From: Bacillota bacterium
GTDB lineage: Bacteria > Bacillota > Sulfobacillia > Sulfobacillales > JAIMBI01
Length of the DNA stretch: 64,000 nt
Assembly: GCA_021846505.1 (NCBI GenBank)
Contig: JAJZWV010000002.1
Span: forward strand, 46,163-110,162
Direction: 5' to 3'
A program made the translations under genes and the position numbers. The notes beneath the pieces are model-generated. The model did no database searches. It saw only the letters and a program-made list of their open reading frames with translations, and had not been told where the DNA came from. Below, in pieces: positions 5,684-64,000 of this stretch (position 1 is its first letter; the number at the start of each line of letters is the position of its first letter).

Positions 5684-5693
5684 CTGGCAGAGG

Positions 5694-7232: not shown

Positions 7233-7688
7233 ATGCGGCAGGGACTTCCCGCAACTCATGTGGGCTCCGCCGGCGGCGCCCTCGGCGTGGCGCTGCTCAC
7301 GGCCTATCTGACGATGCTGGCGCCCCATCCCGTGCACGCCGCCCCCCCATCAGACGGCTTCCGCGGCGCCCCCGCCAGCGACCCGCCTCCCCCAGATGGC
7401 GGTCACCGTCACCACCACGACGCGGCTGCCCACGCCGGCTGCCCCTGGCCCGGCTGTCCAGGGGACAGAGCACGGCACAAAGCACCAGCCGAAGACGGAT
7501 CCGGGCAAGGGGCACAAACACTCCCGCCATCACGGGCACTAGCCGGCAGAAGGCCGGGCCGCCGCTTTCCCCGGGTGCCTAGTCCGCCGCCGTGGCAGCC
7601 ACCCGCTGCCCGGCCGCGCGCACCCGAATGGCTTCCACTTCGTCGTCGGGAATCGCTCGCTCAAAGCGGCGAAACCCAGCCATCCTGA
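7233..7688 (+). CDS. Possible small secreted His-rich protein (3' limit doubtful)
   Basis: Strong RBS AGGAGGG lies 7 nt before the ATG at 7233. The product has a signal-like N-terminus (GALGVALLTAYLTMLAPHPVHA) and a GGHRHHHD stretch. GC3 bias is lost after about 60 codons, and the ORF tail overlaps the convergent gene. Confidence 0.3.
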   Translation: MRQGLPATHVGSAGGALGVALLTAYLTMLAPHPVHAAPPSDGFRGAPASDPPPPDGGHRHHHDAAAHAGCPWPGCPGDRARHKAPAEDGSGQGAQTLPPSRALAGRRPGRRFPRVPSPPPWQPPAARPRAPEWLPLRRRESLAQSGETQPS

Positions 7689-8682: not shown

Positions 8683-8774
8683 GCTGGTCCCTCCCCGAGT
8701 GCAGATCGTGTGCTCAATTTTGTGCACACTCCTCATCCGGCTCAGGATACCATGTGGGGCCCGCCGTGCCCAAT

Positions 8775-10820: not shown

Positions 10821-10979
10821 GGGCCACCTCCCTTCTCGATGATGGCCGGCATCGGGACGCCTTGTCAGGTCATGCTATCATGCTGGCGATCGGCGGCGGA
10901 TGGACAAGTTCAGTGCCAAAGCCAGGGCAGCCGGAGAGTGCGGCCCCTCGCCGCCGCTCACACTAGCGGCGGGGGGTCG

Positions 10980-12458: not shown

Positions 12459-12495
12459 CGGAGGGGCCGGCCACCCACGCGAGCCGCCCCCTCCG

Positions 12496-12845
12496 CTAGT
12501 AGCCGCGGCGAATGAGCGGCCGCCCCTGGGCATCCAGCATCGACCCGGTGGCAATGAGGATGACGTCAATGAGCCACCAAACGCCAAATCCCCCCAGCGT
12601 GAATAGCTTTAGGAGGCCGGTGCCGATTTTTCCTAGATAGAAGCGGTCACCCCGAGCGAGCCCAGAAAGACTGACAGCAGCAGCGCCACCAGCCAATCAC
12701 GGCCCGGCGGCGCGAGATAGCTGGGCGGCATGGCCACCGCCATGCCGCAGTGGGGGCATGCCGGCGCGTCCAGCGGCATCGACTGCCCACAGTGGCGGCA
12801 GAACACTTGGGGTCCGGTATGGGTAGGGTCGGTTGGGTTGCTCAC
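12496..12845 (-). pseudogene. Zinc-ribbon + TM2-domain membrane protein interrupted by a 1-nt frameshift
   Basis: ORF 12633..12845 (CRHCG...CPHCG, DWLVALLLSVFLGSLGV) and ORF 12496..12696 (RFYLGKIGTGLLKLFTLGGFGVWWLIDVILI) together make one TM2 domain. The frames switch at about 12650-12660, where GGG GTG ACC GCT TCT ATC TAG is read in place of the expected GTG xAC CGC TTC TAT. Confidence 0.75.
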
Positions 12846-13029
12846 GTTCCTCCCCTTTTCGTGACGCCCTGCGTTTCGGATCGCCGAGCGCCGAGCTCGC
12901 TTCGACCCAGCGATTCATCCGCACTGCTGCCGCTGCGGCACAGCGGCGCCGCCCGCTGATGATATCGGGTCCACCATGCGACTGGCAACCAATTAGCGCC
13001 GCTTCGTGGCCAGGCCTGAATCCGGAAGC

Positions 13030-13314
13030 TCACAGGCGCCGTTCGCCGCCGCCAGCCGGATAGCCGGCCGGAGTTGGGTGGGCCAGCGCAGCCCCCGCCC
13101 ACACTCCCGCCACGCCGAGCCCAGTAGAGACCAGCCCGACAGCGATGGCGGCGATCTCCGGCCGCGCGCTCCACAGCAGCAGCGCGGCCAGGGGCGGCAC
13201 CAGCAGGGGCGAGAGCGTCAAGGCCGCCGCCCCCAACAGCACCGCCACGCCGAAAAGCCACCAGAGCACCCGCGCCGGGCGCTGATCCCGCATGGGCAAA
13301 TCCAGCGGAGGCAT
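13030..13314 (-). CDS. Small membrane protein downstream of the ECF sigma factor (possible anti-sigma; start uncertain)
   Basis: Hydrophobic segments VLWWLFGVAVLLGAAALTLSPLLV and IAAIAVGLVSTGLGVAGVWAGAAL. The frame is open up to the sigma stop, and in-frame GTG codons upstream of the ATG at 13314 could serve as the start. Confidence 0.4.
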   Translation of the reverse strand: MPPLDLPMRDQRPARVLWWLFGVAVLLGAAALTLSPLLVPPLAALLLWSARPEIAAIAVGLVSTGLGVAGVWAGAALAHPTPAGYPAGGGERRL

Positions 13315-13408
13315 AGGCGGCACGTCTGCCGGCAGGTGCGCCACCAGGCGGTCAATCGGGTCCAGGGGCACCAGATCCCGCGGTGCCTGCCGCTGCCTCG
13401 CGGGCCTC

Positions 13409-13966
13409 TCACTCGCAATCGGGCACCACCTTTCTCGGAGCCGATCCTCTGCCGGGCGCCCCCGTGCCCAGGTCGCGCCGGAGGCTCTGCCGCGCGCGGT
13501 GGACCCAATTGCGCAGCGTGCTGGGCCGGCACGACAAGGCGCGGGCCGTCTCTTCATACGTCAAGCCCTCGCGCGCCACCAGCAGCAGCGCCACTCGCCA
13601 CAGCGGCGGCAAGTTGGCCACCGCCTGCGCGACTGAGGCCCAGTGCTCATGCTCAACCACCACCTCTTCTGCGGAGGGCCCCCCCTCCTCGGACCAGTTT
13701 TCGCAAAGATCGGCACGATGGCGGCGGCGCTCATTGCGGGCGAGGTTGAATCCAATGGACACAATCCAGGTTTCCACCCGGCTGTCCCCGCGAAAGGACG
13801 GCAGGCGCCGCCAGGCTTGGAGCAAAGCCTCCTGGGCTAAATCCTCGGTGGCCTCCCGATCCCCCACATACGGCAGCAAACTTCGGTACAGCAGCGGCCA
13901 CACACCGTCGGCCAGCTGCCGAAAGGCGTCGGCTTCGCCCGCCTGAGCTCGCTGCCAAAGCTCCAT
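13409..13966 (-). CDS. ECF-type sigma-70 factor
   Basis: Region 2 (EDLAQEALLQAWRRL) and region 4 (LWRVALLLVAREGLTYEETARALSCRPSTLRNWVHRAR). The start is set at the ATG at 13966 (MELWQRAQAGE). Confidence 0.9.
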   Translation of the reverse strand: MELWQRAQAGEADAFRQLADGVWPLLYRSLLPYVGDREATEDLAQEALLQAWRRLPSFRGDSRVETWIVSIGFNLARNERRRHRADLCENWSEEGGPSAEEVVVEHEHWASVAQAVANLPPLWRVALLLVAREGLTYEETARALSCRPSTLRNWVHRARQSLRRDLGTGAPGRGSAPRKVVPDCE

Positions 13967-19749: not shown

Positions 19750-19824
19750 TGGTGCGCCCGAAGGGACTCGAACCCCTGCTTCAGGCTCCGGAGGCCTGCG
19801 TGATATCCACTTCACTACGGGCGC
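19750..19824 (-). tRNA. tRNA-Arg (anticodon CCG), CCA encoded
   Basis: A 75-nt cloverleaf folded by hand: acceptor GCGCCCG/CGGGCGC, D stem GTGA/TCAC, anticodon stem CAGGC/GCCTG with loop CTCCGGA, T arm AGGGG-TTCGAGT-CCCTT, discriminator A, then CCA. Confidence 0.93.
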
Positions 19825-31401: not shown

Positions 31402-32307
31402 TTAGCCCCAAAGACCCAAGGCCACCACGCCGGCCGCGATCAGCCCGGCGGCGGCTATCCGCCGACGCCCATGGGACTCGCCCAGCACCACAACCCCTAG
31501 CACTGTGCCAAACACCGTCCCAACCGCCCGCATGGGCGCCACCTGCGCGGCGGCTGCCTCGCGAAGGGCCAGCAGGAACAGCAGGTAGGACCCGGGGGCT
31601 AGGATGCCCGCCAATATGATGGTCTGCCGGGTGCGCGCCCATTCCTTTCGCACCACGCCCGAGCGGAGAGCCCACCAGGAGAGCGCTAGCACGTTTGCAA
31701 GGTTGCCTGCGTCGTTTAAGGTGACGGCGGCCACGTACGGGAGTGCCACTTTGTCCAAGAGGGTGTAGCCGGTAATCGCGAGGCCCACGGTGAGCGCTAG
31801 CCGCGCCGCCCTCGGAACGCCAGCCCGTTGGCCGTCGCTAGTCCGCCAGTGCCAGTCGCCCAGCAGCCAGATGCCAGCGACGATGGCACAAATCCCCGCC
31901 CAGCCCAACCCCGACACGGCCTCGCCTAAGACGGCCACCGCCAGGATAGGCACCAACAGCGGGCTCACGCCGCGCATCATGGGGTACACCTGAGACAAGT
32001 CCCCCGCGTCATATGTGCGCGACAGGAAAATGACGTAGATGCCGTGCATGGTGACGGCCGCCGCCAACATCAGCCACCCTCGTCCCGAAATGGGGTGACT
32101 GGCCAGCGCGTAGAGCGCCCAAGGCAGAAACGCCAAAACGGCCACGCACTGAAACAGCCAGAGAAACACCACGGGGTGGGCGCTGCGCTTGGCAAACAGA
32201 TTCCACACGGCATGGAGCAACCCCGACATGGCGACCAGCACAAAGGCCCACGACGACAAAACGAGCCTCCTTTGCGGGAGACTCTTCAGGGGACTGTTCA
32301 TGGCCAC
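31402..32307 (-). CDS. EamA/DMT-superfamily transporter
   Basis: 301 aa with 10 predicted hydrophobic helices in two EamA-like halves. Confidence 0.9.
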   Translation of the reverse strand: MAMNSPLKSLPQRRLVLSSWAFVLVAMSGLLHAVWNLFAKRSAHPVVFLWLFQCVAVLAFLPWALYALASHPISGRGWLMLAAAVTMHGIYVIFLSRTYDAGDLSQVYPMMRGVSPLLVPILAVAVLGEAVSGLGWAGICAIVAGIWLLGDWHWRTSDGQRAGVPRAARLALTVGLAITGYTLLDKVALPYVAAVTLNDAGNLANVLALSWWALRSGVVRKEWARTRQTIILAGILAPGSYLLFLLALREAAAAQVAPMRAVGTVFGTVLGVVVLGESHGRRRIAAAGLIAAGVVALGLWG

Positions 32308-32908
32308 ATGGGCAAAGCCAGCAATAGCCCTGACCTAGTCGCCGCGTGGCACCCGAAACCCTTCTTCCATCCGGACTGTACCGTCGGCACGGGATTCGCA
32401 CCCGTTCATGCCGTCGGGCCCCCGACACGCGGAGCCCCGACGGCTCGTGGGCTTGTCAGCCTCGCTGAATCACCACCGATCGGGAATTGGCCGCTGCAGG
32501 CCGGCCTCACCCTGCCCTGAAGGTCTATGCAGTTGTCAGGTACGCTAGGCCACGGTGGGACCGGTGTCAAGGACACCGCGGGACGCAGTGCGCCACACCA
32601 AAGTGGCCAGCCCTTGACCAGTCTCTCGCTGCGGGCATTCTGACCAGGCAGTCGGTTGGCCGCACGCCCCGGCCTAAGCATTCCCTGACTTTCGAGCAGA
32701 AGATTCTAGTGGCCGAATTTGCAAGCCCTGACGCCCGCCGCCGTGCGGGGCGACAATGGGCCCCCCCTCCTCACAGCGTTCGTCTGGGGCTACGTCATCT
32801 CAGCCCTCTGCGGCCGCCCGGTCGAGAAGGTCCCCGCACCCGCAATTTCGGACCATCTAACGGCAACCTGGGGGCTTGCACCCCTTGTCACAACCATTAG
32901 CCAAACGA

Positions 32909-53885: not shown

Positions 53886-54481
53886 GAGACTATCGCGCAC
53901 GAGAGCACGGGGCTGAGCCGGAACCTGGACACCGCGGCGACGGGGTCGCGCTGGGTCGAAAGCTCTACGTGAACCGCCCCTGGCGATCCCGAAGCCCCTG
54001 CCGGGCGCCTCCCCCTCTTGCGCGAAAACCTGCTTGAGGGGCCGACCCGTCCGGCTATGGACGGCCGGTTTGGCTCCCGCAGCGCGTTGGGCGCCACCTA
54101 CGTGAGCACCCAGCATCGCCGGCCTGGGGCTCGGGACGCGCACCGTCCACCGCATCGCGGTCTCCGCCGCCGCCTCCACCTGTTCTGGCCTCAATCCCAG
54201 CACCGTCGCCAGATCTGCGCGACACTCCTCCATAGCAGGAGCTCCCTCGCGTGTTGACTTCAGCTATCAACGAATTGGGCATGCTGTCGGTTCTCTCCTG
54301 CTGGCCCATCCCAAAGGTTTTATAGAGCCTTCTCCCTGTTGCATTTTTGTTTCCTCCGTGATAGCGTCGTGGCAAATCCATATCTCCTGACAAGGGCAAA
54401 ACCGCCGAAAGACGGTGGCGCAAAACCACGGGCCTAAATTCGCTTGCGCGGACAGGGCAGCCGGGTTGCCGTATTTCCGCC

Positions 54482-55723
54482 TTGGGCAGGAAACGTAAGG
54501 GGCAACGGGTTGTGAGTTCTGGATCTTTCTCCGGACGAGGTGCTTCGCTTTATGCCCTGGCCGCCTCGTTCATGGCCACCACCGTGTTCGCGCTATCGCT
54601 CTCTGTCAATCCTCCGGTGGCTCAGGCACATGCCGGTGTGCACAGAGGGGCTGCGGTTGCGGATCGCGCTGCCACGGATCTCCATCCATTCGGCACGGTG
54701 CTCATGGGCAGGCGCACGACGCAAGTGGAGCCGGCACAAAGGATCGCTACAACCAAGCCTGCAACGTCCAAGACGCGCCCGGCGCGCAGCGTCCCCGCGG
54801 CGGCGGCGGCCACGACGCCGTCGAACGCAGCGACAACCCCCGCGCCGTCTCGGGTGCCACCCCCTGCCCCGCCCAAGAACGAGTCGGGCGGCGCTGCTCC
54901 GCCCTCAGCAGCCGCGAACCCTTCACCACCCACGACCGCCGGTGCGCCGGCTGTCCGGGCGCTGTGGCAGTGGTACACGGGGCTCATTGTCTCCGCGCCC
55001 CAAACGCTGCTGTCGTTCGCGGCCGCCCATCAGGTCAATGTGATCTATCTGCAGGTCAACCAGAGCATCCCCCAGACTTCCTACGCCGCCTTCATCCAGG
55101 CGGCTGGCCAGCACGGCGTCAAGGTGGTGGCTTGCAGTGGAGCGCCGACCTGGGGAACACGTGCCGGACAGGGACAGTTGCTGTCGTTCGTCAGTTGGGT
55201 CGGCCAATACAACGGCGCACATCCGTCCGCTCCGTTCGCCGGGATCAATCTGGATATCGAGCCGTACCAACTGCCCGCGTGGACCAGTTCCCAGGCGACG
55301 GTCGTGTCGCAGTGGATGGCCAATGTCGACGCGGCGGTCGCGCTGGCTGCCCGCAGCAGGCTTGCCGTATCGGCGGCGGTCCCCTTCTGGCTGGATACCA
55401 TCCCGGCCGCTGGCGCCGGAGAGCCGCTGGGTCTCTGGATGGCCCAGCACACCCAGCAGTTGGTCATCATGGCGTACCGCAACGCGGCGGCAGGCGTTAT
55501 CGCCGTGGCGGCGGCGGAACTGAAGGATGGGGCCCAAGTGGGACGACCGGTGGTGGTTGCGGTAGATACCACGAACAGCGGCCCCACGACGAGTTTTAGC
55601 GGCGACACCCAACCCGAACTGGCGACCGCCCTGTCAGCGGTTGCACGCAACCTGGCCGCGACCCCTGCCTTCGCGGGATGGGCGGTCAACGACTACACCG
55701 CTTGGAGCCAGATGGCGCCGTAG
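54482..55723 (+). CDS. Secreted protein: signal peptide, Pro/Ala/Thr-rich linker, and a TIM-barrel-like glycoside-hydrolase-like domain
   Basis: Signal ALAASFMATTVFALSLSVNPPVAQA, then low-complexity PAPS... Alternating beta/alpha-like segments follow, with INLDIEPY and LVIMAYRN, reminiscent of exopolysaccharide (EPS) hydrolase-like TIM barrels. The family was not firmly recognised. Confidence 0.65.
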   Translation: MGRKRKGQRVVSSGSFSGRGASLYALAASFMATTVFALSLSVNPPVAQAHAGVHRGAAVADRAATDLHPFGTVLMGRRTTQVEPAQRIATTKPATSKTRPARSVPAAAAATTPSNAATTPAPSRVPPPAPPKNESGGAAPPSAAANPSPPTTAGAPAVRALWQWYTGLIVSAPQTLLSFAAAHQVNVIYLQVNQSIPQTSYAAFIQAAGQHGVKVVACSGAPTWGTRAGQGQLLSFVSWVGQYNGAHPSAPFAGINLDIEPYQLPAWTSSQATVVSQWMANVDAAVALAARSRLAVSAAVPFWLDTIPAAGAGEPLGLWMAQHTQQLVIMAYRNAAAGVIAVAAAELKDGAQVGRPVVVAVDTTNSGPTTSFSGDTQPELATALSAVARNLAATPAFAGWAVNDYTAWSQMAP

Positions 55724-55939
55724 CATGGTCGCGATCGCCCCGGGCAAGCCTGGCGATGGCCGACACTGAGGGCCTATGGCACGACGGGTAGGTGGACGTG
55801 CCACCCCCGGGCGCTGCAGCTTATGGCGTCGGCTCGGAAACCGTTCGCCATTTGACCCGGCTGGTGGAGCGGGTGGCCGGCACGACCACGCCCGCCAGGG
55901 TGATGGCCGACGCGCCCAGCATGCGCCGCAAGACCCCTT

Positions 55940-56520
55940 ATCGGTGGAGAGAAGCAACCTGCCAGCATCCAGTCGAGCCCTTGGCGGGCCAGGCCCCCTC
56001 CGCATCGACGACTAGCGGAGGCGGGATTGAGAGCAGACGACCCACGATCTCCCAGGGAAGAACACCATCCTGAGCGCCATCCTCAAGAAGGCGCCGCGCA
56101 TCTTCTCCAACGGCCAGACGTCAGGTCGCATTCATTCGCGACCATCGCTTCCGCTTCGCTTCTCGGTCACGAAGAGGTGTCCGGGGCTGCAGCTCTCACG
56201 CAGCGGGTATTGGGCATGGGCGGCGCGGCGGCTCAGCGCACAGGCGTCGGCCGGCAGGACCCACTGGCGCGCACTCGGACGATCAATGCCGAGGCGGCAG
56301 GGCGTAGGGCAGCCCCACGATTGCGGCGGTGCTCCAGCGCGCGGGCCAGCGGATTGCCCTGAACGTCGTAGCCGCCGGGCTATGCGCGGGCGGCCCTCGG
56401 CAAATATATCGAGGCCGTCTACGACCGGCAGCGCCTGCACAGCGCTGTGGGATGGCCGCCACCACACTCACCGCCTCACCGATGCATTCCCTATTTTTCG
56501 GCTGTTCACGATCTTGGCTT
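55940..56520 (+). mobile_element. IS3-family transposase (rve integrase core) remnant, multiply frameshifted
   Basis: Tail motif KYIEAVYDRQRLHSAVGW (..YIE.fYN..R.HS.LGY) at about 56400-56460. Weaker SMPRRQG (SMSR.GN) and NLPASS..(NLLAR.F) similarities lie upstream in other frames. Confidence 0.45.
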
Positions 56521-56559
56521 AAGTCCAGTGGCCGGCTATGTGGCTGTCGTGGATTCCTG

Positions 56560-57008
56560 GCCTACGTAAATGGAGACCGACCGCTATCCCGCGGAAGACA
56601 AACAGGCCCACAATGGCATGACGGTCAAAGGGAATCAACCGGCCTCACGTGGCCGGGTCTGGTTCAAGTGTTTCGCATCGCCCGCCGCGTCACGACGCTC
56701 GACGGCCCCCCGCAGCGAGGCAGCCTATGGCCTCACGGACCCTCTCCCCGGCCGAGGCCGATGCCGCAACCCTGGGTGCCTGCGTGCGTCACCACGGAGA
56801 CATCCAAACCCGGCTCCACTACATTCGCGACAGGACCGACGATGAAGGCCGCTCCCAGGTGCGCACCCACAACGGCCCGCGCGCCATGGCCACGTTCCGC
56901 AACACCGCCATCAGCCGGTGGCAAACGCACGGCCTCCCCAACATTCAGGGGGCGCTGAACCACTTGGCGCGGCATCCCGACCAAGTCGCCCACCTCCTGC
57001 TCGGCTAA
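56560..57008 (+). mobile_element. ISAs1-family (H-repeat-associated) transposase C-terminal remnant
   Basis: LTWPGLVQVFRIARRV sits in one frame. Another frame reads HHGDIQTRLHYIRDRTDDEGRSQVRTHNGPRAMATFRNTAISRWQTHGLPNIQGALNHLARHP, which matches HW.IEN.LHwvrDvtf.ED.sr.r.g.gp..mA.lRN.ai. Confidence 0.6.
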
Positions 57009-57164
57009 GCGGCCGCGACACAGCCTTCGTGCCCAGGACGACGGCGCCGCCGTGTCGTGCCTTACCCCTTTCCCCGCGGCACGTCAGCCGAGCGGCGGAC
57101 ATCACGCTGCCCAATCCTGGACCCAAAGCCTTGTGAAGCGCCCCGACATTGCCGTCATCTTTCC

Positions 57165-57193
57165 TCGACACCGCAGCCCGGCCATGCTATGAT
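57165..57193 (+). promoter_or_regulatory. Putative promoter of the HEAT-GT2-GH16 operon
   Basis: TCGACA (57165-57170), a 17-nt spacer ending in TGC, and TATGAT (57188-57193, an extended -10). This lies 18 nt before the GTG at 57211. Confidence 0.45.
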
Positions 57194-57210
57194 CTGAAAA
57201 TAGGGGTAGT

Positions 57211-58083
57211 GTGCGTTCGCATCATCCTCATAGGTCTCTAAGGAAGGGCGCACCAGAGTTGGCTATTGTGGAAACTCTCATTGGGCTGGTGTTTTATGGC
57301 ACCGCAGTGGCGACAGGGGTCTTGTTCTTCCTATGGGTGGCGGTCCGGGGTTTAGCCCGTTTGCGAAAGTCACCATCCCGAGCCAACTCTCCTCAGACTT
57401 CCACCGCACTCTGGCGGCTGGAGCACACCCCACCCGGTCACCGCGCCTTGGGTTGGGCGTGGGTCGCTCTGACGACCACACCTTCGGCGAGCGGTCGGGC
57501 CCAAGTGGTGTTGCATCTATTGGCCCATCCGCGACCGGCATACCACTTTATAGCGTCGCTCTTGCACGCATCCAACTATCGGGATGCGCACACCTTTTTT
57601 GAAGGAATCCTCTCCGAACCGCATCGGCGCCTCCGCGATCTCGCGCTTCTGGGGCTGTCGCGCGCCGCTGCGGTGGATCCCTCACTTCGACCCTTGCTTC
57701 TGGAGGAGGCCGCCTCGGCGGACCCAAAGCGTCAGCTGGCAGCGGTGCGACCCCTGCTAGCCACCTACGCGGAGGAAGCCTCGCCGCCTCTGGGTCTTCT
57801 GGCCGATCTGGCGACCGCTCCTGATTGGCGAATCCGGGCGGCTTGCGCCTCTGCACTGGGGCGCTGGGATTCGCCGCTCGCCGGACAGTACCTGCGGCAC
57901 CTCCTCCGTGATCCACAGTGGACCGTTCGGCACGCGGCGGCGCGCACCCTCGCGGGGCAGCACGGGGGATGGCGAGCCCTTCACGCTTCCGCCCACGACC
58001 CCGATCCCTTTGCTGCGGATATGGCGCTCGATGCCTTTCAATGGCTGCCTGCGGCCACGACCTTCAAGGCATCCGTACGGTGA
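57211..58083 (+). CDS. Membrane-anchored HEAT-repeat protein
   Basis: N-terminal TM (LIGLVFYGTAVATGVLFFLWVAV) and HEAT-like repeats (DWRIRAACASALG, DPQWTVRHAAARTLA). Confidence 0.75.
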   Translation: MRSHHPHRSLRKGAPELAIVETLIGLVFYGTAVATGVLFFLWVAVRGLARLRKSPSRANSPQTSTALWRLEHTPPGHRALGWAWVALTTTPSASGRAQVVLHLLAHPRPAYHFIASLLHASNYRDAHTFFEGILSEPHRRLRDLALLGLSRAAAVDPSLRPLLLEEAASADPKRQLAAVRPLLATYAEEASPPLGLLADLATAPDWRIRAACASALGRWDSPLAGQYLRHLLRDPQWTVRHAAARTLAGQHGGWRALHASAHDPDPFAADMALDAFQWLPAATTFKASVR

Positions 58084-58087
58084 GCAG

Positions 58088-59491
58088 ATGACTCGCTTCC
58101 CCTTCATGACAGTCGGGGAGTATGCCGGACTAGTGTGGCTGGTTGCCGTGATGGGGTTCTATTACGCGTTGCTCGCGGCCTCCGCGTGGTGGTTGGTCCG
58201 CTACGTCCGCGGGGTCATCACCATTCCGCTCGAGGCGCTCCGCACGTCCCCGCATGTTCCCCCGGTGTCGATTATTGTGCCGGCTTACAACGAACAGGAA
58301 ACCATCGTCGATTCTGTCGAGGCGCTGTTCGGCATCGACTATCCGGAATTTGAGATTATTGTGGTGAACGACGGATCCACGGACACTACTTTGGAGCGCC
58401 TGACGGACCGGTTCCAATTGAAGCCGGTTCAGCGGCGAGCGCTCATCTCCCGATTGTCCTGCGCCCGGACGCGCAGCATGTCCGTGAGCAGTGAGGACGC
58501 GCGGCTGGTCGTGGTCGACACCGACAACGGGGGCAAAGGCCGCGCCCTCAACGCTGGCATCACTGTGGCGCGATTCCCCTTGGTCTGCACCATCGATGCA
58601 GATTCGCTGCTGGAGCGGGATGCCCTGCTCCGCATGGCCCGGGTGCACATGATCGACCCGGAACGCATTGTCGCCGTGGGTGGGATGGTGCGGGTTGGCA
58701 ATGGCTGCGATATTGAGGGGGGGCAAGTGGCTCGCGTGCGAGCCCCACGCCAACTGGTTCCTGCACTCCAGGCCGCGGAATACATTCGAACGTTTGTAGG
58801 CGGTCGGATGGGATGGACCGCGTTTAACGCGCTCCCCATTATTTCTGGCGCCTTCGGCCTGTTCCGTCGGGACATGGTTCTGGCGGTCGGTGGCTATTCG
58901 GATACCCGACCGGGCGAAGACATGGGCATCGTCCTCGCCATTCACCATCAGTGTCGGGCCCTCAACGTGCCCTATCGCATCGAGTACTGTCCGGATGCGG
59001 TGTGCTGGACGCAAGCCCCGGTCACCTTGAAAACGCTTGGCGTCCAACGCCGGCGGTGGGCTCGGGGCAACCTCCGCAACATCGGCGCGTACGGCCGGTT
59101 GATGTTGGGTCGGCCTCGGTACGGCGTGCTGGGTTTGGTTGTCATGCCGTATATGCTGCTGGTCGAGGTGTTGGGGCCATACTGGATGGCCATAGCTTTG
59201 GCACTGGTGGCCGTGGCGCTCATGCGGTCCTCTCTCGGTCCCGCCGTGTTGGCACTGGCCGGCGCCCTCATGGTGCTGGAGATCCTGTTGGGGTGGATCG
59301 CCCTGTTTCTTGACGACTGGGCTTTTCGGCGGTATACCGTGCGTGACGTGCTGATATTGTTGCTTCACATGCTCCACATGCCGTTTTGGTATTACTTCGT
59401 CACGTCTTACTGGCGCGTTGTCGGACACGTGCAATGGATCCGGCGGCAGAACCCCTGGGGTACCATGAGCCGGGTGTCCTGGAAAGCGTGA
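58088..59491 (+). CDS. Processive family-2 glycosyltransferase (PgaC/IcaA/NodC-like polysaccharide synthase)
   Basis: VSIIVPAYNE, VVNDGSTD, DADS, GED and QRRRWARG (QxxRW) motifs, flanked by N- and C-terminal TM helices. Start is the ATG at 58088, 4 nt after the HEAT gene stop. Confidence 0.9.
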   Translation: MTRFPFMTVGEYAGLVWLVAVMGFYYALLAASAWWLVRYVRGVITIPLEALRTSPHVPPVSIIVPAYNEQETIVDSVEALFGIDYPEFEIIVVNDGSTDTTLERLTDRFQLKPVQRRALISRLSCARTRSMSVSSEDARLVVVDTDNGGKGRALNAGITVARFPLVCTIDADSLLERDALLRMARVHMIDPERIVAVGGMVRVGNGCDIEGGQVARVRAPRQLVPALQAAEYIRTFVGGRMGWTAFNALPIISGAFGLFRRDMVLAVGGYSDTRPGEDMGIVLAIHHQCRALNVPYRIEYCPDAVCWTQAPVTLKTLGVQRRRWARGNLRNIGAYGRLMLGRPRYGVLGLVVMPYMLLVEVLGPYWMAIALALVAVALMRSSLGPAVLALAGALMVLEILLGWIALFLDDWAFRRYTVRDVLILLLHMLHMPFWYYFVTSYWRVVGHVQWIRRQNPWGTMSRVSWKA

Positions 59492-60429
59492 GCCAACATC
59501 ACCCGGCGTCGGCCGGCCTATCGCAGGCGCTCCGCAACATCGAGCGCCGCCGACGCCGGCGTCGACGCGTCCTCCTGACTATCGTGGCAGCACTTCTGGC
59601 GGCGGCGGTGGGTGTCAGCGCGTGGCGGGAGACGACGCGCACAACCCTCTCACCGCCGTCGGCTGGGCCCGTGCCCTCGCCGACGGTCATCGCCGCGACC
59701 CACGATACGCGCATGCCGGGATGGCACTTAGTGTGGGACGATGAGTTCGACAGCCAAGCCCTGACGGACCGCCTTTGGACCATTAAGAGCTTTGCTTACC
59801 CGTACAACCGTCAGCTGCAGTATTACAGCGCGGCGCACGTCTTGGTCAGAAGCGGAAATCTCCGTCTTGTGGTGACGCCGCAACCGCTCGGCGGTCGCAC
59901 CTACACCTCGGCTATGGTTACGACCAAGGGCACTATGGCGTGGAAGTACGGCTTGTTGATGGTTCGTGCGAAGTTGCCAGCAGACGCGGGGCTCTTTTCC
60001 GCCATCTGGATGCTTCCCGCGCGGACCGGAAAGACCGTCCTTCCGGAGGTGGACGTGGTCGAGGCAAAGGGGTCCCTTCCCCACCACGTGGTCATGACCC
60101 TGCACTGGGCGGGTCCCGGCGGGCGGATCCAAAGCCTCGGTGCCGCAGAAAACGGGCCTAACTTTACAGACAGCTTTCATACGTTCGCCCTAAAGTGGAC
60201 CCCGTCCCAATTGACATGGTATGTCGACGGGGTACCTCGATTCCACACGTCCCAGAATGTTCCGCATGTAGCGATGTATCTCATCATGAACGTAGCCGTG
60301 GGCGGGGTGTTCCCGGGCAATCCGCTCCCTTCCGATCACTGGCCGGCCGCCATGGTGGTGCAGTACGTCCGGATCTATAAGCCGGGCAACCCGCCTCCCC
60401 CCATCCCAGAGTCCATCCGGCGCGGTTAG
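59488..60429 (+). CDS. Membrane-anchored GH16 glycoside hydrolase (beta-glucanase/laminarinase-like)
   Basis: WDDEFD, catalytic EVDVVE (ExDxxE), and FHTFALKW...LTWYVDG. The GTG at 59488 overlaps the GT2 stop (GTGA). An N-terminal Arg-rich segment is followed by a TM. Confidence 0.9.
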   Translation: MSQHHPASAGLSQALRNIERRRRRRRRVLLTIVAALLAAAVGVSAWRETTRTTLSPPSAGPVPSPTVIAATHDTRMPGWHLVWDDEFDSQALTDRLWTIKSFAYPYNRQLQYYSAAHVLVRSGNLRLVVTPQPLGGRTYTSAMVTTKGTMAWKYGLLMVRAKLPADAGLFSAIWMLPARTGKTVLPEVDVVEAKGSLPHHVVMTLHWAGPGGRIQSLGAAENGPNFTDSFHTFALKWTPSQLTWYVDGVPRFHTSQNVPHVAMYLIMNVAVGGVFPGNPLPSDHWPAAMVVQYVRIYKPGNPPPPIPESIRRG

Positions 60430-61079: not shown

Positions 61080-61430
61080 TGACGACATCACGCGCCGAGT
61101 GCCTAAGCGCTCACGGAGGCGGCGGGCACGGCGGCGCTGGCGGACTTTGCGAACGCGGGGGGGACTCGGTATCGGACGAGGGGCTCGCCATACGACCTGC
61201 ACCACGAACCTCATTGAGGGGTTCCACCGGTCACTTGCGCAAGGTGGCCACAATCGGGAATCTCATTCCGACAGACGCGACCCTGACGAAGCTGCTGTAC
61301 CTCGCAGGCCAACAAGCCCAGCAGAAGTCGACGAAGCGGGTGCCGAGCTGGGGCGAAATTCTGGCCCACTTGGTCATCTATTGTGAAGACCGACTGACTC
61401 CCTACCTGAAACAGCCACATGGAAATTTGC
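61080..61430 (+). mobile_element. IS256-family (Mutator-type) transposase C-terminal remnant, frameshifted
   Basis: TTNLIEGFHRS sits in one frame. After a shift at about 61228, another frame reads LRKVATIGNLIPTDATLTKLLYLAGQQAQQKSTKRVPSWGEIL, matching the IS256 tail (TTN.iE..n..ir.r.....FP........l.y). Confidence 0.6.
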
Positions 61431-61714
61431 TCACGACTCTTGACACTCACCGAAACCCTCGGGGCGGGGGCATGACCAACATCACCGTTGATGACTGGGA
61501 GCGCCAGTAAGGGTGTCACCGTCCGAGCCGCGCAGCGCATGATAATTGGCCCGGGGATCAATGTCACCGCCGGAGGCTTCTGGTATGTTCAGATAATCGG
61601 GAGGCGCAGCCGGCGATGCACGGGACCAGATGCCTGCAACGCCGCCGACCGACACGAAGGACCCGACCGCGGCGCCAGTTCCTAGCGCCGATTTAGCTCG
61701 GACTGGAAGAGGGG

Positions 61715-62197
61715 TTGGCCAGGATGCGATTGCGATCGATGACCGAAGAAGAATTTGCTCGGTACCTCACGTCGGCCGTGAGCCATTATGCGGACGAACA
61801 CGTGAAGTCTGGGCGTTGGGATGCGGGTCACGCCCAAGAACAGGCTGAACGGGAGTTTCAGGAGCTGTTGCCTCACGGTCTGAACACGGTGGACCAATTT
61901 CTTTTCACCCTGGTGGACGAAGTGCTCGACGAAGCCGTTGGCATGCTCTGGTACGGCATCCGGGAGAAAATCGGCACGCGGGAAGCGTGGATCTGGGATT
62001 TCAGCGTCACCGAGACGGTCCGCCGGCGGGGCTATGGCCGGCAGGCACTCGACGCCTTGGAACGCCACGTTCGACAGCACCGATTGGACCGGATTAGCCT
62101 CCACGTGTTTGGTCACAACACTGCGGCGCGGGCCCTCTACGAACGCATGGGCTACGAGCCGGTCAACATCGTGATGAGCAAGGCGCTGACCGTCTGA
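61715..62197 (+). CDS. GNAT-family N-acetyltransferase
   Basis: Motif A RRRGYGRQALDALE and a C-terminal ALYERMGYE. The true start may be the ATG at 61724. Confidence 0.85.
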   Translation: MARMRLRSMTEEEFARYLTSAVSHYADEHVKSGRWDAGHAQEQAEREFQELLPHGLNTVDQFLFTLVDEVLDEAVGMLWYGIREKIGTREAWIWDFSVTETVRRRGYGRQALDALERHVRQHRLDRISLHVFGHNTAARALYERMGYEPVNIVMSKALTV

Positions 62198-62268: not shown

Positions 62269-62823
62269 TTGACGATTGAACCGCTCAGCGCCGACAACTG
62301 GAGCGATTTCGCGAGTCTCTGTGGGGACATGGGGCCCAACCGGTCCTGCTGGTGCCTGTGGTGGCGCTACGACGGGGGTCCCTCGCGTACGCCCGCCCGG
62401 GAGCGCGCCCGGGCGCTGGTTCGGGAATCGCGCCGGCCCGTCGGACTCATCGCCTACGAGGACCAGGAGGCCATCGGCTGGGTCGCCGTGGGGCCGCGAG
62501 CCGATTACCCACGACTCAATCGGGGGCGCGACACCGCCCCCATTGATGATGCCTCGGGGGTGTGGGTCATCCCATGTTTCTTCGTGCGAGAACGTTGCCG
62601 CGGACGCGGAGTGGCGACCGCCCTGTTGGAAGCCGCCGTACGCTTCGCGACAGCCGGTGGGGCTGCCGCCATCGAGGGTGTTCCGGGGGACCCCACCACA
62701 CAGTCACGCAGCGCCACGGCATCTTACACGGGGACGGTCCCCATGTTTCAGCGGGCCGGGTTTGCCGAGCAGGCCCGGCGCACGCCCAGGGGGCGGGTGG
62801 TGATGCGAAGGCATCTGCCGTAG
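62269..62823 (+). CDS. GNAT-family N-acetyltransferase
   Basis: CFFVRERCRGRGVATALLEAAV (motif A) and MFQRAGF. The N-terminal CWCLWWR pattern is seen in a GNAT subfamily. Confidence 0.85.
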   Translation: MTIEPLSADNWSDFASLCGDMGPNRSCWCLWWRYDGGPSRTPARERARALVRESRRPVGLIAYEDQEAIGWVAVGPRADYPRLNRGRDTAPIDDASGVWVIPCFFVRERCRGRGVATALLEAAVRFATAGGAAAIEGVPGDPTTQSRSATASYTGTVPMFQRAGFAEQARRTPRGRVVMRRHLP

Positions 62824-62988: not shown

Positions 62989-64000
62989 CTATGTCAAACC
63001 CTGTGGGATCTGGATCGGTGGACGGAAGCCCAGCAACATCTTCCGGCGATACCGATCCCGGTTGCGGAACCCATAGCTCTGGCGCTTCTGGCTCTTGATC
63101 TTCGTGTGGCATCCTCGATGTCCCCGCTGGTGAACGGCTGGGCCAGTTGCCAGCGCGCCAACAGCGCGGGCCGCCACCGGCGGAGCGTCTGGGCCCATTG
63201 GTAGCCTTCGGCGTCGTCGCACGCCTCGGCGTTGAGGAGCCCGCGGTGCAGCTGCGCGGTCGCTGCCTGTAGGTCCGGCGCGTGGATGAGCGTCCGCAAG
63301 TCTTCTTTCAAGTGGTGGAGTGGGCCCAACGCCGGATAGGTTGTTTGAATCGGTGCGAGGGCCTCCTGCTACCGGGGCCGGAGGTTTTCGACGCCCTTGA
63401 TCAGAGGCCAGCGCTGAATCGTTATCTTGGTGAGGTGTTCTCGAGACAGCGCGCCCCGTCCACCCGGACCGTCCCGTCCTGAATGAGGTGAAAGGGGTCC
63501 ATCAGGACGGCCACGTGCGGACACGCGCGCCGCGGGGCTTTCGCGTACGCGACCGTCATGTCGATGCAGCCCCGCGGATGCGGGCCCGCACCGACGCCGG
63601 GATCCGGGCGAACCACGCGTCCAGCGTGGCAGGTGGTCATCCGCCAGGATCGTGAGCACCCGGCGTTCGGGGGCCAGCCGCGCGATGGTGATGCACAGGT
63701 CGGTGCCCCGAAACGAGGCTGCATCAATGGACAGCATCCAGTCCCCGGGGAGATCCCACCACGTGTCGTCCTCGAGCGCCACCATGCGGTCCACCAAGCG
63801 CCGCTAGCGCCCGACGCCCCCGCCCAGCACGGGGGCGACCCCGCCGAAGCTGTCCCGGCGCAGTCGGCTCAACGCGGCCGTCTGCGCGGCGGCGGACCCG
63901 CGCTGCCACGCCGCGCGCGGGAGCGGCCGGGCCTGGGTCACGTGGTGGCACACCACGCACCGATAGCGCTGGGGGGCCCACGCGACCTGGACCGGCGTCT
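62989..64000 (-). mobile_element. ISL3-family transposase pseudogene (multiple frameshifts; continues beyond the window)
   Basis: The tail HTKIKSQKRQSYGFRNRDRYRRKMLL (NtKIK.lKR..YGFRN) is in frame 62989..63222. DPFHLIQDGTVRVDGAR (D.FHvv....avd.vR) and LSIDAASFRG..LCIT (iDE.s.rkg..Y.T) lie in two other frames. Confidence 0.7.

What the first reader, a model, noticed from the sequence alone, without database searches (positions are those of the whole stretch)
54482..60429. Intact HEAT-repeat / GT2 synthase / membrane-anchored GH16 operon forming an island of function inside IS debris: candidate uncharacterised exopolysaccharide (beta-glucan-type?) system
**Operon structure.** Three genes are tightly coupled: a 4-nt gap between HEAT and GT2, and a GTGA overlap between GT2 and GH16. 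They lie behind a good extended -10 promoter.

**Gene content.**
- The GT2 has all the hallmarks of a processive membrane polysaccharide synthase (DxD, GED, QxxRW, flanking TMs).
- Its partners are neither the usual PgaABD/IcaADB, cellulose BcsB, nor CrdA/C components.
- Instead there is a TM-anchored HEAT-repeat protein and a TM-anchored GH16 with an intact ExDxxE catalytic motif.
- GH16 enzymes cut or transglycosylate beta-1,3 or beta-1,3-1,4 glycans, which suggests the polymer class.

**Context.** A secreted TIM-barrel-like protein (54482-55723) lies upstream, separated only by IS3 and ISAs1 remnants. It may originally have been part of the same locus. The operon is the only clearly intact multi-gene unit between 49.7 kb and the window end, which argues for ongoing selection.
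Basis: partly seen in the sequence, partly recalled or inferred. Interest (0 to 1): 0.65.

Follow-up and report, generated by a model that had tools for sequence, protein, structure and literature searches.

The report
c-di-GMP-linked HEAT–GT2–GH16 polysaccharide synthase module

Summary
Three coupled genes lie at 57211-60429: a HEAT-repeat membrane protein, a processive GT2 synthase and a membrane-anchored GH16. They are flanked by ISAs1, IS256 and ISL3 remnants.

- **Upstream ORF:** 54482-55723 encodes a secreted TIM-barrel protein and belongs to the system.
- **Riboswitch:** a c-di-GMP-I-class aptamer lies at 54386-54474, directly in front of that ORF.
- **Conservation:** the full set (riboswitch, TIM-barrel gene, HEAT, GT2, GH16) recurs in five other lineages (GT2 47-79% identical), in varying gene order.
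- **HEAT–GT2 pair:** it is far wider. A HEAT gene sits directly upstream in 59 of 64 metagenomic loci, and also on Mesorhizobium and Deinococcus plasmids. GH16 and the riboswitch are specific to this clade, except that one Clostridia relative without GH16 also has the riboswitch.
- **GT2 family:** it reaches 144 bits against the PgaC/IcaA model (cutoff 422). Its predicted fold is closest to class I hyaluronan synthases.
- **TIM barrel:** it has no Pfam family and has an invariant D-x-E plus Tyr.

My reading is an uncharacterised, c-di-GMP-linked, synthase-dependent exopolysaccharide system. The polymer is unresolved: GH16 points to a β-1,3-type glucan, while the synthase and TIM barrel hint at HexNAc. 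I rate it a new variant of a known kind, with interest about 0.6.

The parts
54386..54474 (+). c-di-GMP-I-class riboswitch aptamer, the leader of the TIM-barrel gene
   Evidence: Rfam RF03167 at 70.6 bits (gathering score 59), E 1e-14. Orthologous aptamers score 80-86 bits on RF01051 in front of the orthologous gene in L003, L031/32, L033, L034 and L036. Nine predicted pairs show compensatory changes across five sequences.
54475..54511 (+). Expression platform: a conserved CUUGGGCAGGAAaCGUAAGGGG segment with the Shine-Dalgarno sequence AAGGGG (54496-54501)
   Evidence: Conserved in four of the five relatives aligned there. The 5' flank CUCC/UCCUG is complementary to the SD and to CAGGA. No terminator-like hairpin was found on the + strand in this stretch, so control is probably translational. 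The sign of regulation is unresolved.
54512..55723 (+). Secreted TIM-barrel protein ('w413'; 403 aa from GTG 54512, or 413 aa from TTG 54482). Layout: signal peptide, Pro/Ala/Thr-rich linker, then a (β/α)8 domain.
   Evidence: No Pfam or NCBIfam hit. AF2 pLDDT 98. The nearest folds are GH18 chitinases, GH84 O-GlcNAcase and SleL, with TM-scores of 0.45-0.66. D104, E106, W149 and Y178 are invariant in 73 sequences. The family profile hits PDB 10yv, 'Putative GH97 from Cellulomonas fimi', at E 1.6e-34. The family has 4885 representative clusters.
56739..57005 (+). ISAs1-family transposase C-terminal remnant, lying between the TIM-barrel gene and the synthase operon
   Evidence: tblastn against plasmids: 45-51% identity to annotated ISAs1 transposases, E 2e-14. 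Pfam gives no hit.
57165..57193 (+). Sigma-70-like promoter match with an extended -10 (TCGACA-17-TGcTATGAT)
   Evidence: Consensus scan, 10 of 12 matches with TG. It is the only match in 54-61 kb, but 1.1 are expected by chance.
57211..58083 (+). HEAT-repeat partner: an N-terminal TM helix, an Arg/Lys cluster, then a cytoplasmic α-solenoid
   Evidence: PF13646 at 64.8 bits. The alignment with nine homologues shows the shared TM plus basic cluster and the D-x-x-W-x-[VI]-R HEAT motifs. A HEAT gene lies directly upstream of the GT2 in 59 of 64 metagenomic loci.
58088..59491 (+). Processive membrane GT2 polysaccharide synthase
   Evidence: Pfam and NCBIfam results. Invariant D95, DAD170-172, GED276-278 and QRxRW320-324. 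AF2 pLDDT 90.5. The best folds are Chlorella-virus and Xenopus hyaluronan synthases, with TM 0.66-0.69 and rmsd 4.0-4.6 Å over about 460 columns. dN/dS is 0.09 against L031.
59488..60429 (+). Type-II membrane-anchored extracellular GH16 endo-β-glycanase (or transglycosylase)
   Evidence: PF00722 at 72.9 bits. The best PDB matches are β-1,3-glucanases and laminarinases at E 1e-34. The E-x-D-x-x-E motif and the poly-Arg plus TM anchor are conserved in six lineages. dN/dS is 0.10.
61211..61453 (+). IS256-family transposase remnant bounding the operon on the right
   Evidence: tblastn against plasmids: 35-42% identity to annotated IS256 transposases, E 1e-9.

Best explanation
The locus encodes an uncharacterised, synthase-dependent exopolysaccharide system tied to c-di-GMP signalling in an uncultured, high-GC, Clostridia-like Bacillota bacterium.

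Proposed working, with what is shown and what is inferred:
1. **GT2 (58088-59491).** It polymerises UDP-sugars at the cytoplasmic face and extrudes the chain through its own transmembrane pore, like class I hyaluronan synthases and PgaC/IcaA. The motifs and fold are shown; the activity is inferred.
2. **HEAT protein.** It has a single-pass anchor and a cytoplasmic α-solenoid, and is translationally coupled 4 nt upstream of the GT2. I take it to be the synthase's obligatory co-subunit, either a scaffold or activator in the role PgaD/IcaD play for PNAG synthases. The near-universal adjacency is shown; the role is inferred.
3. **GH16.** It overlaps the GT2 by GTGA and is anchored with its catalytic domain outside the cell. 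It cleaves or transglycosylates the emerging polymer, setting chain length, release or wall attachment, as ExoK/ExsH, BcsZ and PssZ do in other systems (inferred).
4. **TIM-barrel protein.** It is secreted and is a second glycosidase-like enzyme for the same matrix. Its translation is gated by a c-di-GMP-I riboswitch, which links matrix remodelling to the sessile/motile switch. The aptamer and its conservation are shown. The ligand, the sign of regulation (ON or OFF) and the substrate are inferred.

The polymer is not identified. My best single guess is a β-linked glycan with β-1,3-linked Glc-type residues, about 0.4. A HexNAc-containing or HA-like heteropolymer is almost as likely.
For: - **Domains and motifs:**
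- **GT2 fold:** closest to hyaluronan synthases (TM 0.66-0.69) and clearly better than BcsA or chitin synthases (TM 0.45-0.56).
- **Conservation of the five-part module:** it recurs in six lineages in all, with GT2 identity of 47-79% and GC of 0.53-0.68. Gene order varies: the TIM-barrel gene is convergent, divergent or upstream, but always adjacent and always behind the riboswitch.
- **HEAT position:** directly upstream of the GT2 on the same strand in 59 of 64 wider metagenomic loci. The same arrangement is annotated on Mesorhizobium and Deinococcus plasmids.
- **TIM-barrel family in other HEAT-GT2 operons:** it is also present in those of Brevibacillus and Paenibacillus and in L037-L039.
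- **Purifying selection:** dN/dS is 0.09 (GT2), 0.10 (GH16), 0.28 (HEAT) and 0.27 (TIM barrel).
- **Coupling:** tight junctions between the three operon genes.
- **Riboswitch elsewhere:** a Clostridia MAG has a c-di-GMP-I riboswitch at the head of a whole HEAT-GT2 operon (L011).
Against: - No experimental datum exists for any member, and the open-access library held no paper on such a system.
- The polymer clues conflict. GH16 is laminarinase-like. The GT2's nearest curated families all use UDP-GlcNAc. The TIM barrel resembles GH18/GH84.
- The riboswitch controls only the accessory TIM-barrel gene, not the synthase operon, which has its own promoter-like site.
- The HEAT role is pure inference, and no complex model could be run.
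- In this window an ISAs1 remnant separates the riboswitch unit from the operon, so their coordination here may differ from that in relatives.
- dS is saturated (1.3-2.1), so the dN/dS values are approximate.
Confidence: 0.7

Rival explanations
1. The product is a β-1,3- or β-1,3-1,4-glucan, curdlan- or lichenan-like. The GT2 would be a UDP-glucose-using β-glucan synthase, comparable to the small Firmicute synthases Tts/Gtf (recalled from memory). GH16 would be its cognate glucanase.
For: - The GH16 domain is 35-40% identical to solved β-1,3-glucanases and laminarinases, at E 1e-34, with an intact β-bulge-type E-x-D-x-x-E motif.
- Hydrolases encoded in EPS operons normally cut the operon's own product (established knowledge: BcsZ, PslG, ExoK).
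- GH16 is translationally coupled to the synthase in six lineages.
- GH158 β-1,3-glucanases appear among the TIM-barrel fold hits.
Against: - The GT2 is not BcsA-, CrdS- or BgsA-like. CelA scores 43.6 bits against a 699 cutoff, there is no PilZ domain, and BcsA aligns only over residues 52-190.
- The characterised Gram-positive mixed-linkage glucan synthase RiGT2 is of the BcsA/PilZ type (PMC10374906).
- The nearest curated models are PgaC/IcaA, NodC and Chitin_synth_2.
- Bacillales members of the family sit with UDP-glucose dehydrogenase, GlmS and a GlmU-like gene.
- The invariant residues of the TIM barrel fit a GH18-like pattern.
Confidence: 0.4
2. The product is a HexNAc-containing polymer: PNAG- or chitin-like, or a hyaluronan-like GlcA/GlcNAc copolymer with alternating β-1,3 and β-1,4 bonds. 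The TIM barrel would be a substrate-assisted endo-β-N-acetylhexosaminidase, and GH16 would cut the β-1,3 or adjacent bond.
For: - The best curated model is PgaC_IcaA, at 144 bits over the full length; NodC and Chitin_synth_2 also hit.
- Hyaluronan synthase is the only PDB protein aligned full-length by the family profile, and it gives the best fold match.
- The Brevibacillus operon (HEAT-GT2-RR-UGDH-GlmS-GlmU-like-TIM barrel) parallels the streptococcal has operon (the operon parallel is from memory).
- UGDH also occurs in Paenibacillus, L038, L039 and L034. A GlmM-like mutase occurs in L037.
- The TIM barrel has D-x-E at the end of β4 and Tyr after β6, as in GH18.
Against: - No UGDH, Glm gene or CE4 deacetylase lies in the window.
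- UGDH is found in only 2 of 51 wider loci.
- No GH16 is known to cleave PNAG, chitin or hyaluronan hydrolytically (from memory).
- The score is far below the PgaC/IcaA cutoff.
- The TM-scores of the TIM barrel to GH18/GH84 are modest (0.45-0.66).
Confidence: 0.35
3. This is not a secreted matrix polymer at all. The GT2/HEAT pair would make a cell-wall-associated or spore-associated glycopolymer, or a glycolipid. GH16 and the GH18-like TIM barrel would be wall-remodelling enzymes, with GH16 acting as a Crh/XTH-style transglycosylase that grafts the chain onto the wall.
For: - GH16 is membrane-anchored rather than released.
- The TIM-barrel fold hits include the spore cortex-lytic SleL.
- L003 lies beside spoIIID and an M23 peptidase gene.
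- GH16 includes transglycosylases (established knowledge).
Against: - c-di-GMP riboswitch control is typical of matrix, adhesion and motility genes.
- The flanking genes differ in every lineage, so the spoIIID neighbourhood is not conserved.
- The HAS-like pore architecture with QRxRW indicates a long secreted chain.
Confidence: 0.15
4. The operon is a decaying passenger in an IS-ridden region and is no longer functional in this genome.
For: It is flanked by ISAs1, IS256 and ISL3 remnants, and a broken EF-G-like gene lies nearby. The riboswitch unit is displaced from the position it holds in relatives.
Against: All four ORFs are full-length with catalytic residues intact. dN/dS is 0.09-0.28. 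The junctions are intact. Identical or near-identical copies occur on independent contigs.
Confidence: 0.05

Closest known systems
PNAG systems PgaABCD / IcaADBC
   Same: - It has a small processive GT2 synthase with an N-terminal TM, a GT domain and C-terminal TMs.
- PgaC_IcaA is its best-scoring curated model.
- The synthase pairs with a membrane partner gene, and a TIM-barrel glycosidase-like protein belongs to the system (compare the PgaB C-domain).
- The system is linked to c-di-GMP.
   Different: - The score of 144 bits is far below the 422 cutoff.
- The partner is a 270-400 aa HEAT solenoid, not the small PgaD or IcaD.
- There is no CE4 deacetylase.
- There is a GH16.
- c-di-GMP acts through a riboswitch on an accessory gene rather than allosterically on the synthase.
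Class I hyaluronan synthases and the has operon
   Same: - It gives the best structural match (TM 0.66-0.69).
- It is the only PDB family aligned full-length by the profile.
- Bacillales relatives of the GT2 carry UGDH, GlmS and GlmU-like genes.
   Different: - Sequence identity is about 17%.
- No hasB or hasC lies in the window.
- HAS needs no protein partner, whereas this GT2 is almost always preceded by a HEAT gene.
- The product is unknown.
c-di-GMP-controlled synthase systems of Firmicutes with a cognate hydrolase (Listeria PssA-E/PssZ, clostridial CcsA/CcsZ, Bcs)
   Same: The logic is the same: one membrane GT2 synthase, a dedicated glycoside hydrolase and c-di-GMP input (PMC4125290, PMC7710045; seen only in the search listings, not read here).
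   Different: - Those synthases are BcsA-like, or they use PilZ or GGDEF-type receptors.
- Their hydrolases are GH8 or GH5.
- None has a HEAT partner, a GH16 or riboswitch control of a TIM-barrel protein.
Sinorhizobium succinoglycan glycanases ExoK / ExsH / EglC (GH16)
   Same: These are GH16 endo-glycanases dedicated to processing a self-made EPS. The EglC model is the best NCBIfam hit for the GH16 here, at 101.8 bits.
   Different: - The score is far below the cutoff of 700.
- Succinoglycan is made by a Wzx/Wzy-dependent pathway, not by a synthase.
- ExoK is secreted rather than TM-anchored.
PDB 10yv, 'Putative GH97 from Cellulomonas fimi'
   Same: It is the only solved member of the TIM-barrel family (profile E 1.6e-34, with the D-x-E motif conserved).
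   Different: - The Tyr of the MAYR motif is absent (it is Phe).
- Its gene is not next to a GT2 or HEAT gene.
- No function has been published that I could find.
- No GH97 model hit the window protein in the Pfam scan.

Membership tests
Processive membrane-embedded GT2 polysaccharide synthases (BcsA/HAS/Chs/PgaC superfamily) | The D, DxD, (G/T)ED and QxxRW motifs in a GT-A domain flanked by TM helices that form a pore | tested here: met
   D95, DAD170-172, GED276-278 and QRRRW320-324 are invariant in 28 sequences. The AF2 model aligns over about 460 columns with hyaluronan synthases.
PgaC/IcaA PNAG synthase (TIGR03937 equivalog) | Score at or above the curated cutoff of 422.3 bits | tested here: not met
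   144.2 bits.
PgaC/IcaA PNAG synthase | Operon partners: PgaD/IcaD and a CE4 deacetylase (PgaB/IcaB) | tested here: not met
   The neighbours are HEAT, GH16 and a TIM barrel. No deacetylase domain was found in any of the four proteins.
Class I hyaluronan synthase | Fold and architecture | tested here: met
   Top 13 Foldseek hits, TM 0.61-0.69.
Class I hyaluronan synthase | Dual UDP-GlcA/UDP-GlcNAc use, with UDP-glucose dehydrogenase in the locus | tested here: inconclusive
   There is no UGDH in the 64-kb window. UGDH is adjacent in L034, Brevibacillus, Paenibacillus, L038 and L039. Substrate use cannot be tested here.
BcsA-type cellulose / curdlan / mixed-linkage glucan synthases | A CelA-level match, a PilZ or C-terminal c-di-GMP domain, and a BcsB-type partner | tested here: not met
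   CelA scores 43.6 bits against a 699 cutoff and there is no PilZ hit. The profile aligns with BcsA only over residues 52-190.
GH16 | A Pfam PF00722 match and the catalytic E-x-D-x(-x)-E motif | tested here: met
   72.9 bits against a cutoff of 22. E187, D189 and E192 are invariant in six lineages.
GH16_3 laminarinase subfamily | Subfamily-level classification (dbCAN/CAZy) and β-1,3-glucan activity | tested here: inconclusive
   The best PDB relatives are laminarinases at E 1e-34. No subfamily HMMs were available, and activity cannot be tested here.
c-di-GMP-I riboswitch (Rfam clan CL00126) | A covariance-model score above gathering, with conserved P2/P3 and junction nucleotides | tested here: met
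   RF03167 at 70.6 bits against 59. Orthologues score 80-86 bits on RF01051. Compensatory pairs are present.
c-di-GMP-I riboswitch | Binds c-di-GMP and switches expression | not testable with these tools
   This needs in-line probing, ITC and reporter assays.
c-di-GMP-I-GGC variant (RF03167) specifically | The variant-specific nucleotides | tested here: inconclusive
   The window reads GCAAAA where the RF03167 consensus has GCGAAg. L031 has the same GGCGCAAAA yet scores best on RF01051. This is probably an ordinary c-di-GMP-I aptamer.
GH18 (for the TIM-barrel protein) | A Pfam/sequence match with the DxxDxDxE motif | tested here: not met
   No Pfam hit at E ≤ 0.01. Only D-x-E, Tyr and fold-level similarity are present.
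GH97 (the label of PDB 10yv) | A sequence match to GH97 | tested here: not met
   No GH97 or any other Pfam family was found. The domain is about 260 aa.
HEAT-repeat proteins | A PF13646/PF02985 match | tested here: met
   64.8 bits against 27.7, and 31.7 bits against 23.5.

The most novel reading that the evidence does not exclude
HEAT+GT2 may be a previously unrecognised class of synthase-dependent polysaccharide machinery that crosses phyla: Bacillota, Deinococcota, Alphaproteobacteria and possibly haloarchaea. In this class a membrane-tethered cytoplasmic HEAT solenoid would be the obligatory co-subunit of a HAS-like synthase. The product would be a polymer not yet described. In this clade, polymer remodelling would be set by a c-di-GMP riboswitch acting on a new glycoside-hydrolase family (the Pfam-less TIM barrel) together with a membrane-anchored GH16.
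Probability: 0.4. Interest if true: 0.75.

Novelty: new variant of a known kind. Interest (0 to 1): 0.6.

Why it matters
Synthase-dependent exopolysaccharides (cellulose, PNAG, alginate, Pel, hyaluronan) are the main scaffolds of biofilms. Each system found so far has brought new enzymology and new targets.

- **A widespread, unstudied pair.** The synthase occurs with a conserved HEAT partner at 92% adjacency in a blind metagenomic sample, yet no paper in the searched library describes such a pair.
- **A large unclassified protein family.** The associated TIM-barrel family has about 4900 clusters at 50% identity, no Pfam model and one unpublished crystal structure.
- **A testable regulatory link.** A riboswitch ties the system to c-di-GMP, which makes the regulation directly testable in vitro.
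- **Tractable experiments.** The whole module is four genes and about 6 kb. Heterologous expression and linkage analysis could identify a new polymer and possibly a new GH family. They could also show what a HEAT solenoid does for a glycan synthase.

Tried and rejected
- **Genome scan with the single GT2 sequence.** Neighbourhoods were recovered instead through exact-protein look-ups and a metagenome scan.
- **Self-tblastx of the flanks.** The output was uninformative noise, and blastn showed no internal repeats.
- **IS3 remnant at 55.8-56.4 kb.** Pfam and tblastn found nothing.
- **Cellulomonas fimi homologue of PDB 10yv.** I checked its context hoping for a curdlan-type synthase neighbour, and found none.
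- **Romboutsia mixed-linkage glucan synthase.** It proved to be of the BcsA/PilZ type and so is not comparable.
- **Literature.** Searches for HEAT+GT2 systems, for c-di-GMP-I-GGC and for C. fimi 'GH97' found nothing relevant.
- **Anti-phage defence.** PADLOC gave only a generic HEAT similarity, so this was rejected.
- **Sign of riboswitch regulation.** Several mutually exclusive pairings are conserved (CUCC:SD, UCCUG:CAGGA and a local hairpin). I could not decide between ON and OFF.
- **Organism name.** Cluster look-ups gave only 'Clostridia bacterium' for one relative.

Full report
**What is in the sequence**

The window is high-GC (0.62-0.73 around the locus). On the + strand I find four ORFs:
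- 54482-55723 (413 aa);
- 57211-58083 (290 aa);
- 58088-59491 (467 aa, within a longer ORF that starts at 57908);
- 59488-60429 (313 aa, within an ORF that starts at 59386).

Pfam and NCBIfam identify the last three.
- **HEAT-repeat protein.** PF13646 scores 64.8 bits.
- **GT2.** PF00535, PF13641, PF13632 and a weaker Chitin_synth_2 hit. The best curated model is PgaC_IcaA at 144 bits against a 422-bit cutoff. NodC scores 52 bits and CelA 44 bits.
- **GH16.** PF00722 scores 72.9 bits.

The first ORF has no family.

HEAT and GT2 are separated by TGA-GCAG-ATG. GT2 and GH16 share GTGA. A promoter-like site, TCGACA-17-TGcTATGAT, lies at 57165-57193, but one such match is what chance alone predicts.

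The IS picture is mostly confirmed:
- an ISAs1 transposase tail at about 56.74-57.0 kb;
- an IS256 tail at about 61.2-61.45 kb;
- ISL3 fragments at 62.99-63.73 kb;
- a GTPase of the EF-G type split into pieces at 49.7-51.7 kb.

The proposed IS3 remnant was not confirmed.

Rfam places a c-di-GMP-I-class riboswitch aptamer at 54386-54474 (70.6 bits, gathering score 59). It ends 22 nt before a conserved Shine-Dalgarno sequence (AAGGGG). That in turn lies 10 nt before GTG 54512, the probable true start of the first ORF.

The best-scoring model is the 'GGC' variant (RF03167). However, the orthologous aptamers in relatives score 80-86 bits on the canonical RF01051. The window also carries A where the variant consensus has G. 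I therefore treat it as an ordinary c-di-GMP-I aptamer.

**The four genes and the riboswitch form one conserved module**

Exact-protein look-ups of GT2 relatives gave five further lineages:

| Locus | GT2 identity | Notes |
|---|---|---|
| L003-5 | 55% | GCA_027343685.1 |
| L031/32 | 79% | |
| L033 | 53% | GC 0.53 |
| L034 | 53% | 'Clostridia bacterium' MAG |
| L036 | 47% | |

Each has HEAT, GT2 and GH16 in the same order and tightly packed. Each also has an orthologue of the first ORF, 37-71% identical over the C-terminal domain. That orthologue lies immediately beside the triad and directly behind a c-di-GMP-I aptamer.

Its placement varies. It is convergent downstream of GH16 in four lineages, divergent upstream in L034, and upstream on the same strand in the window. 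So the association is kept through rearrangements. In the window the ISAs1 remnant lies exactly in the 1.5-kb gap, which suggests an IS-mediated relocation (inference).

All four genes look selected. Against L031/32, dN/dS is 0.09 (GT2), 0.10 (GH16), 0.28 (HEAT) and 0.27 (TIM barrel), with no internal stops. dS is saturated, so these ratios are rough.

**The wider family**

The GT2 has thousands of relatives at 40-50% identity in Brevibacillus, Paenibacillus, Cohnella, Pontibacillus and others. All carry only generic names.

In Brevibacillus and Paenibacillus the operon reads as follows:
- an unknown 741-aa protein;
- HEAT (390-400 aa);
- GT2;
- a response regulator;
- UDP-glucose dehydrogenase;
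- in Brevibacillus, GlmS and a GlmU-like gene;
- a homologue of the first ORF's domain.

A profile-based metagenome scan gave 80 more loci at 33-51% GT2 identity. Using HMMs built from my alignments:
- a HEAT gene lies directly upstream on the same strand in 59 of the 64 loci with enough upstream sequence;
- among the 51 loci with at least 3 kb on one side, GH16 occurs in 0, the TIM-barrel family in 6, 741-aa-like proteins in 13, response regulators in 18 and UGDH in 2.

A covariance model built from seven aptamers found no riboswitch in those 80 loci or in the Bacillales loci.

On plasmids, the annotated arrangements are YaiO-family porin, HEAT, GT2 with two-component genes in Mesorhizobium, and TPR, HEAT, GT2 in Deinococcus.

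So HEAT+GT2 is an old core that crosses phyla. GH16 and the riboswitch-controlled TIM barrel are additions specific to this clade. One Clostridia MAG (L011) has a c-di-GMP-I riboswitch at the head of a whole HEAT-GT2 operon.

**The proteins**

*GT2.* D95, DAD170-172, GED276-278 and QRxRW320-324 are invariant across 28 sequences. The AF2 model (pLDDT 90.5) matches Chlorella-virus and Xenopus hyaluronan synthases best, with TM 0.66-0.69 and rmsd 4.0-4.6 Å over about 460 columns. BcsA and chitin synthases are clearly worse, at TM 0.45-0.56. By sequence profile, hyaluronan synthase is the only solved protein aligned over the full length (E 2e-6). No PNAG synthase appeared among the PDB sequence or fold hits, so the 'HAS-like' match may simply reflect the minimal synthase architecture.

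*HEAT protein.* All ten aligned homologues share a short N-terminus, one TM helix, an Arg/Lys cluster and then HEAT repeats (D-x-x-W-x-[VI]-R-x-x-x-A). This places the solenoid in the cytoplasm (the topology follows from the positive-inside rule).

*GH16.* It has a poly-Arg N-terminus, one TM helix and then a catalytic domain 35-40% identical to solved laminarinases (E 1e-34). E187-x-D189-x-x-E192 is invariant. It is therefore a type-II anchored extracellular enzyme.

*First ORF ('w413').* It has a signal peptide, a Pro/Ala/Thr-rich linker and a 259-aa domain. The family is large: 4885 clusters at 50% identity with E ≤ 1e-3.
- AF2 gives a TIM barrel with pLDDT 98.
- Across 73 sequences the invariant residues are G66, D104, E106 (in LDIEPY, at the end of β4), W149 and Y178 (in MAYR, after β6).
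- Foldseek's best hits are GH18 chitinases, GH84 O-GlcNAcase and SleL, at modest TM-scores. A GH158 β-1,3-glucanase also appears.
- The family profile matches PDB 10yv, 'Putative GH97 from Cellulomonas fimi' (E 1.6e-34). Its gene is not next to any synthase, and I found no paper on it.

**How it most likely works**

I commit to a synthase-dependent exopolysaccharide module.
- The GT2 polymerises and exports the chain.
- The HEAT solenoid is its cytoplasmic co-subunit (scaffold or activator).
- The membrane-anchored GH16 trims, releases or grafts the emerging chain outside the cell.
- The secreted TIM-barrel enzyme remodels the same matrix under c-di-GMP control.

Shown: domain identities, motifs, folds, topological signals, tight coupling, conservation, purifying selection and the riboswitch. 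Inferred: every activity, the HEAT role, the riboswitch ligand and the sign of regulation.

The leader has no terminator-like hairpin on the + strand. It has conserved segments complementary to the SD (CUCC 5' of the aptamer) and to CAGGA just before the SD. I therefore expect translational control by SD occlusion. An SD:anti-SD helix that encloses the aptamer would argue for an OFF switch: hydrolase made at low c-di-GMP, driving dispersal. Competition with P1 would argue for an ON switch. I could not decide between them.

**The polymer**

The clues conflict.
- GH16 points to β-1,3-linked Glc-type residues. This clue is strong, because operon-encoded glycanases normally cut their own product.
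- The GT2's nearest curated families (PgaC/IcaA, NodC, Chitin_synth_2, HAS) and the D-x-E/Tyr pattern of the TIM barrel point to β-HexNAc.
- The Bacillales operons add UGDH and Glm genes.

A heteropolymer with alternating β-1,3 and β-1,4 bonds would reconcile these clues, but that is speculation. My estimates:
- β-1,3-type glucan, about 0.4;
- HexNAc-containing or HA-like polymer, about 0.35;
- wall-associated rather than free polymer, about 0.15. This concerns location, so it is not exclusive of the first two.

**Comparison and novelty**

The system works like the PNAG, HAS, Pss, Ccs and Bcs systems: one synthase, a cognate hydrolase and c-di-GMP input. It is a member of none of them.
- It fails the PgaC/IcaA and CelA cutoffs.
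- It lacks PgaD/IcaD, CE4, PilZ and BcsB.
- It has a HEAT partner, a GH16 and a Pfam-less TIM barrel behind a riboswitch.

The characterised Gram-positive mixed-linkage glucan synthase is of the BcsA/PilZ type. PADLOC shows no link to phage defence. The literature searches found nothing on HEAT-GT2 systems, within the limits of an open-access library.

Verdict: a real feature, and a new variant of a known kind. It is of moderate to high interest to biofilm and CAZyme specialists.

Noticed in passing
window 32355-32528 (-): An FMN riboswitch (RF00050, 85.9 bits) lies upstream of a 301-aa ORF at 31402-32307 on the minus strand.
   Followed up: no
window 49.7-51.7 kb (+): An EF-G/ribosomal-protection-type GTPase is split into at least three ORFs (GTP_EFTU, EF-G_D2, EFG_IV, EFG_C). 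It is probably a frameshifted pseudogene.
   Followed up: partly
window 61715-62197 (+) and 62269-62823 (+): Two intact GNAT acetyltransferase genes lie between the IS256 and ISL3 remnants. The synthase operon is therefore not the only intact unit near the window end.
   Followed up: partly
window 62989-63727 (-): ISL3-family transposase fragments occur in several frames (PF01610, 20-23 bits each).
   Followed up: partly
L006 (Brevibacillus brevis CP134050.1) 2550-13443; L007/L008 (Paenibacillus); L037-L039: This is the Bacillales variant of the system. It comprises a 741-aa unknown protein, a long HEAT protein, GT2, a response regulator with an unknown N-domain, UGDH and the TIM-barrel family. 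GlmS and GlmU-like genes are added in Brevibacillus, and a GlmM-like gene in L037. The sugar-nucleotide genes resemble a streptococcal has operon.
   Followed up: partly
L118 (Mesorhizobium ciceri pMc1192) 1-6518; L119 (Deinococcus radiophilus pRadio2) 1307-6341: The HEAT+GT2 pair also occurs in diderm bacteria. In Mesorhizobium it sits with a YaiO-family outer-membrane β-barrel, two response regulators, a kinase and an Hpt protein. In Deinococcus it sits with a large TPR protein. This suggests a complete trans-envelope version of the same machinery.
   Followed up: no
L011 (Clostridia MAG JAZRYL010000042.1) 107-13620: A c-di-GMP-I riboswitch sits at the head of a long operon: a 223-aa gene, a 743-aa gene, a 1089-aa gene, HEAT, GT2, and then two 741-aa-like genes.
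   Followed up: partly
window 54386-54474 versus L031 10641-10729: The window and L031 aptamers share GGCGCAAAA (GGC instead of GAC before GCAAA). One is called RF03167 and the other RF01051, so the Rfam variant assignment is unstable for these sequences.
   Followed up: partly
PDB 10yv / P0298 (Cellulomonas fimi CP002666.1, L035 9001-10044): The only solved structure of the large Pfam-less TIM-barrel family is labelled 'Putative GH97'. It is a 347-aa protein with no GH97 features, and its gene is next to a WYL-domain regulator rather than a synthase.
   Followed up: partly
window 55724-56738: About 1 kb between the TIM-barrel gene and the ISAs1 remnant matches no family and no plasmid sequence. 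Its origin is unknown.
   Followed up: partly
window 19753-19824 (-): A single tRNA gene (RF00005, 66.9 bits).
   Followed up: no
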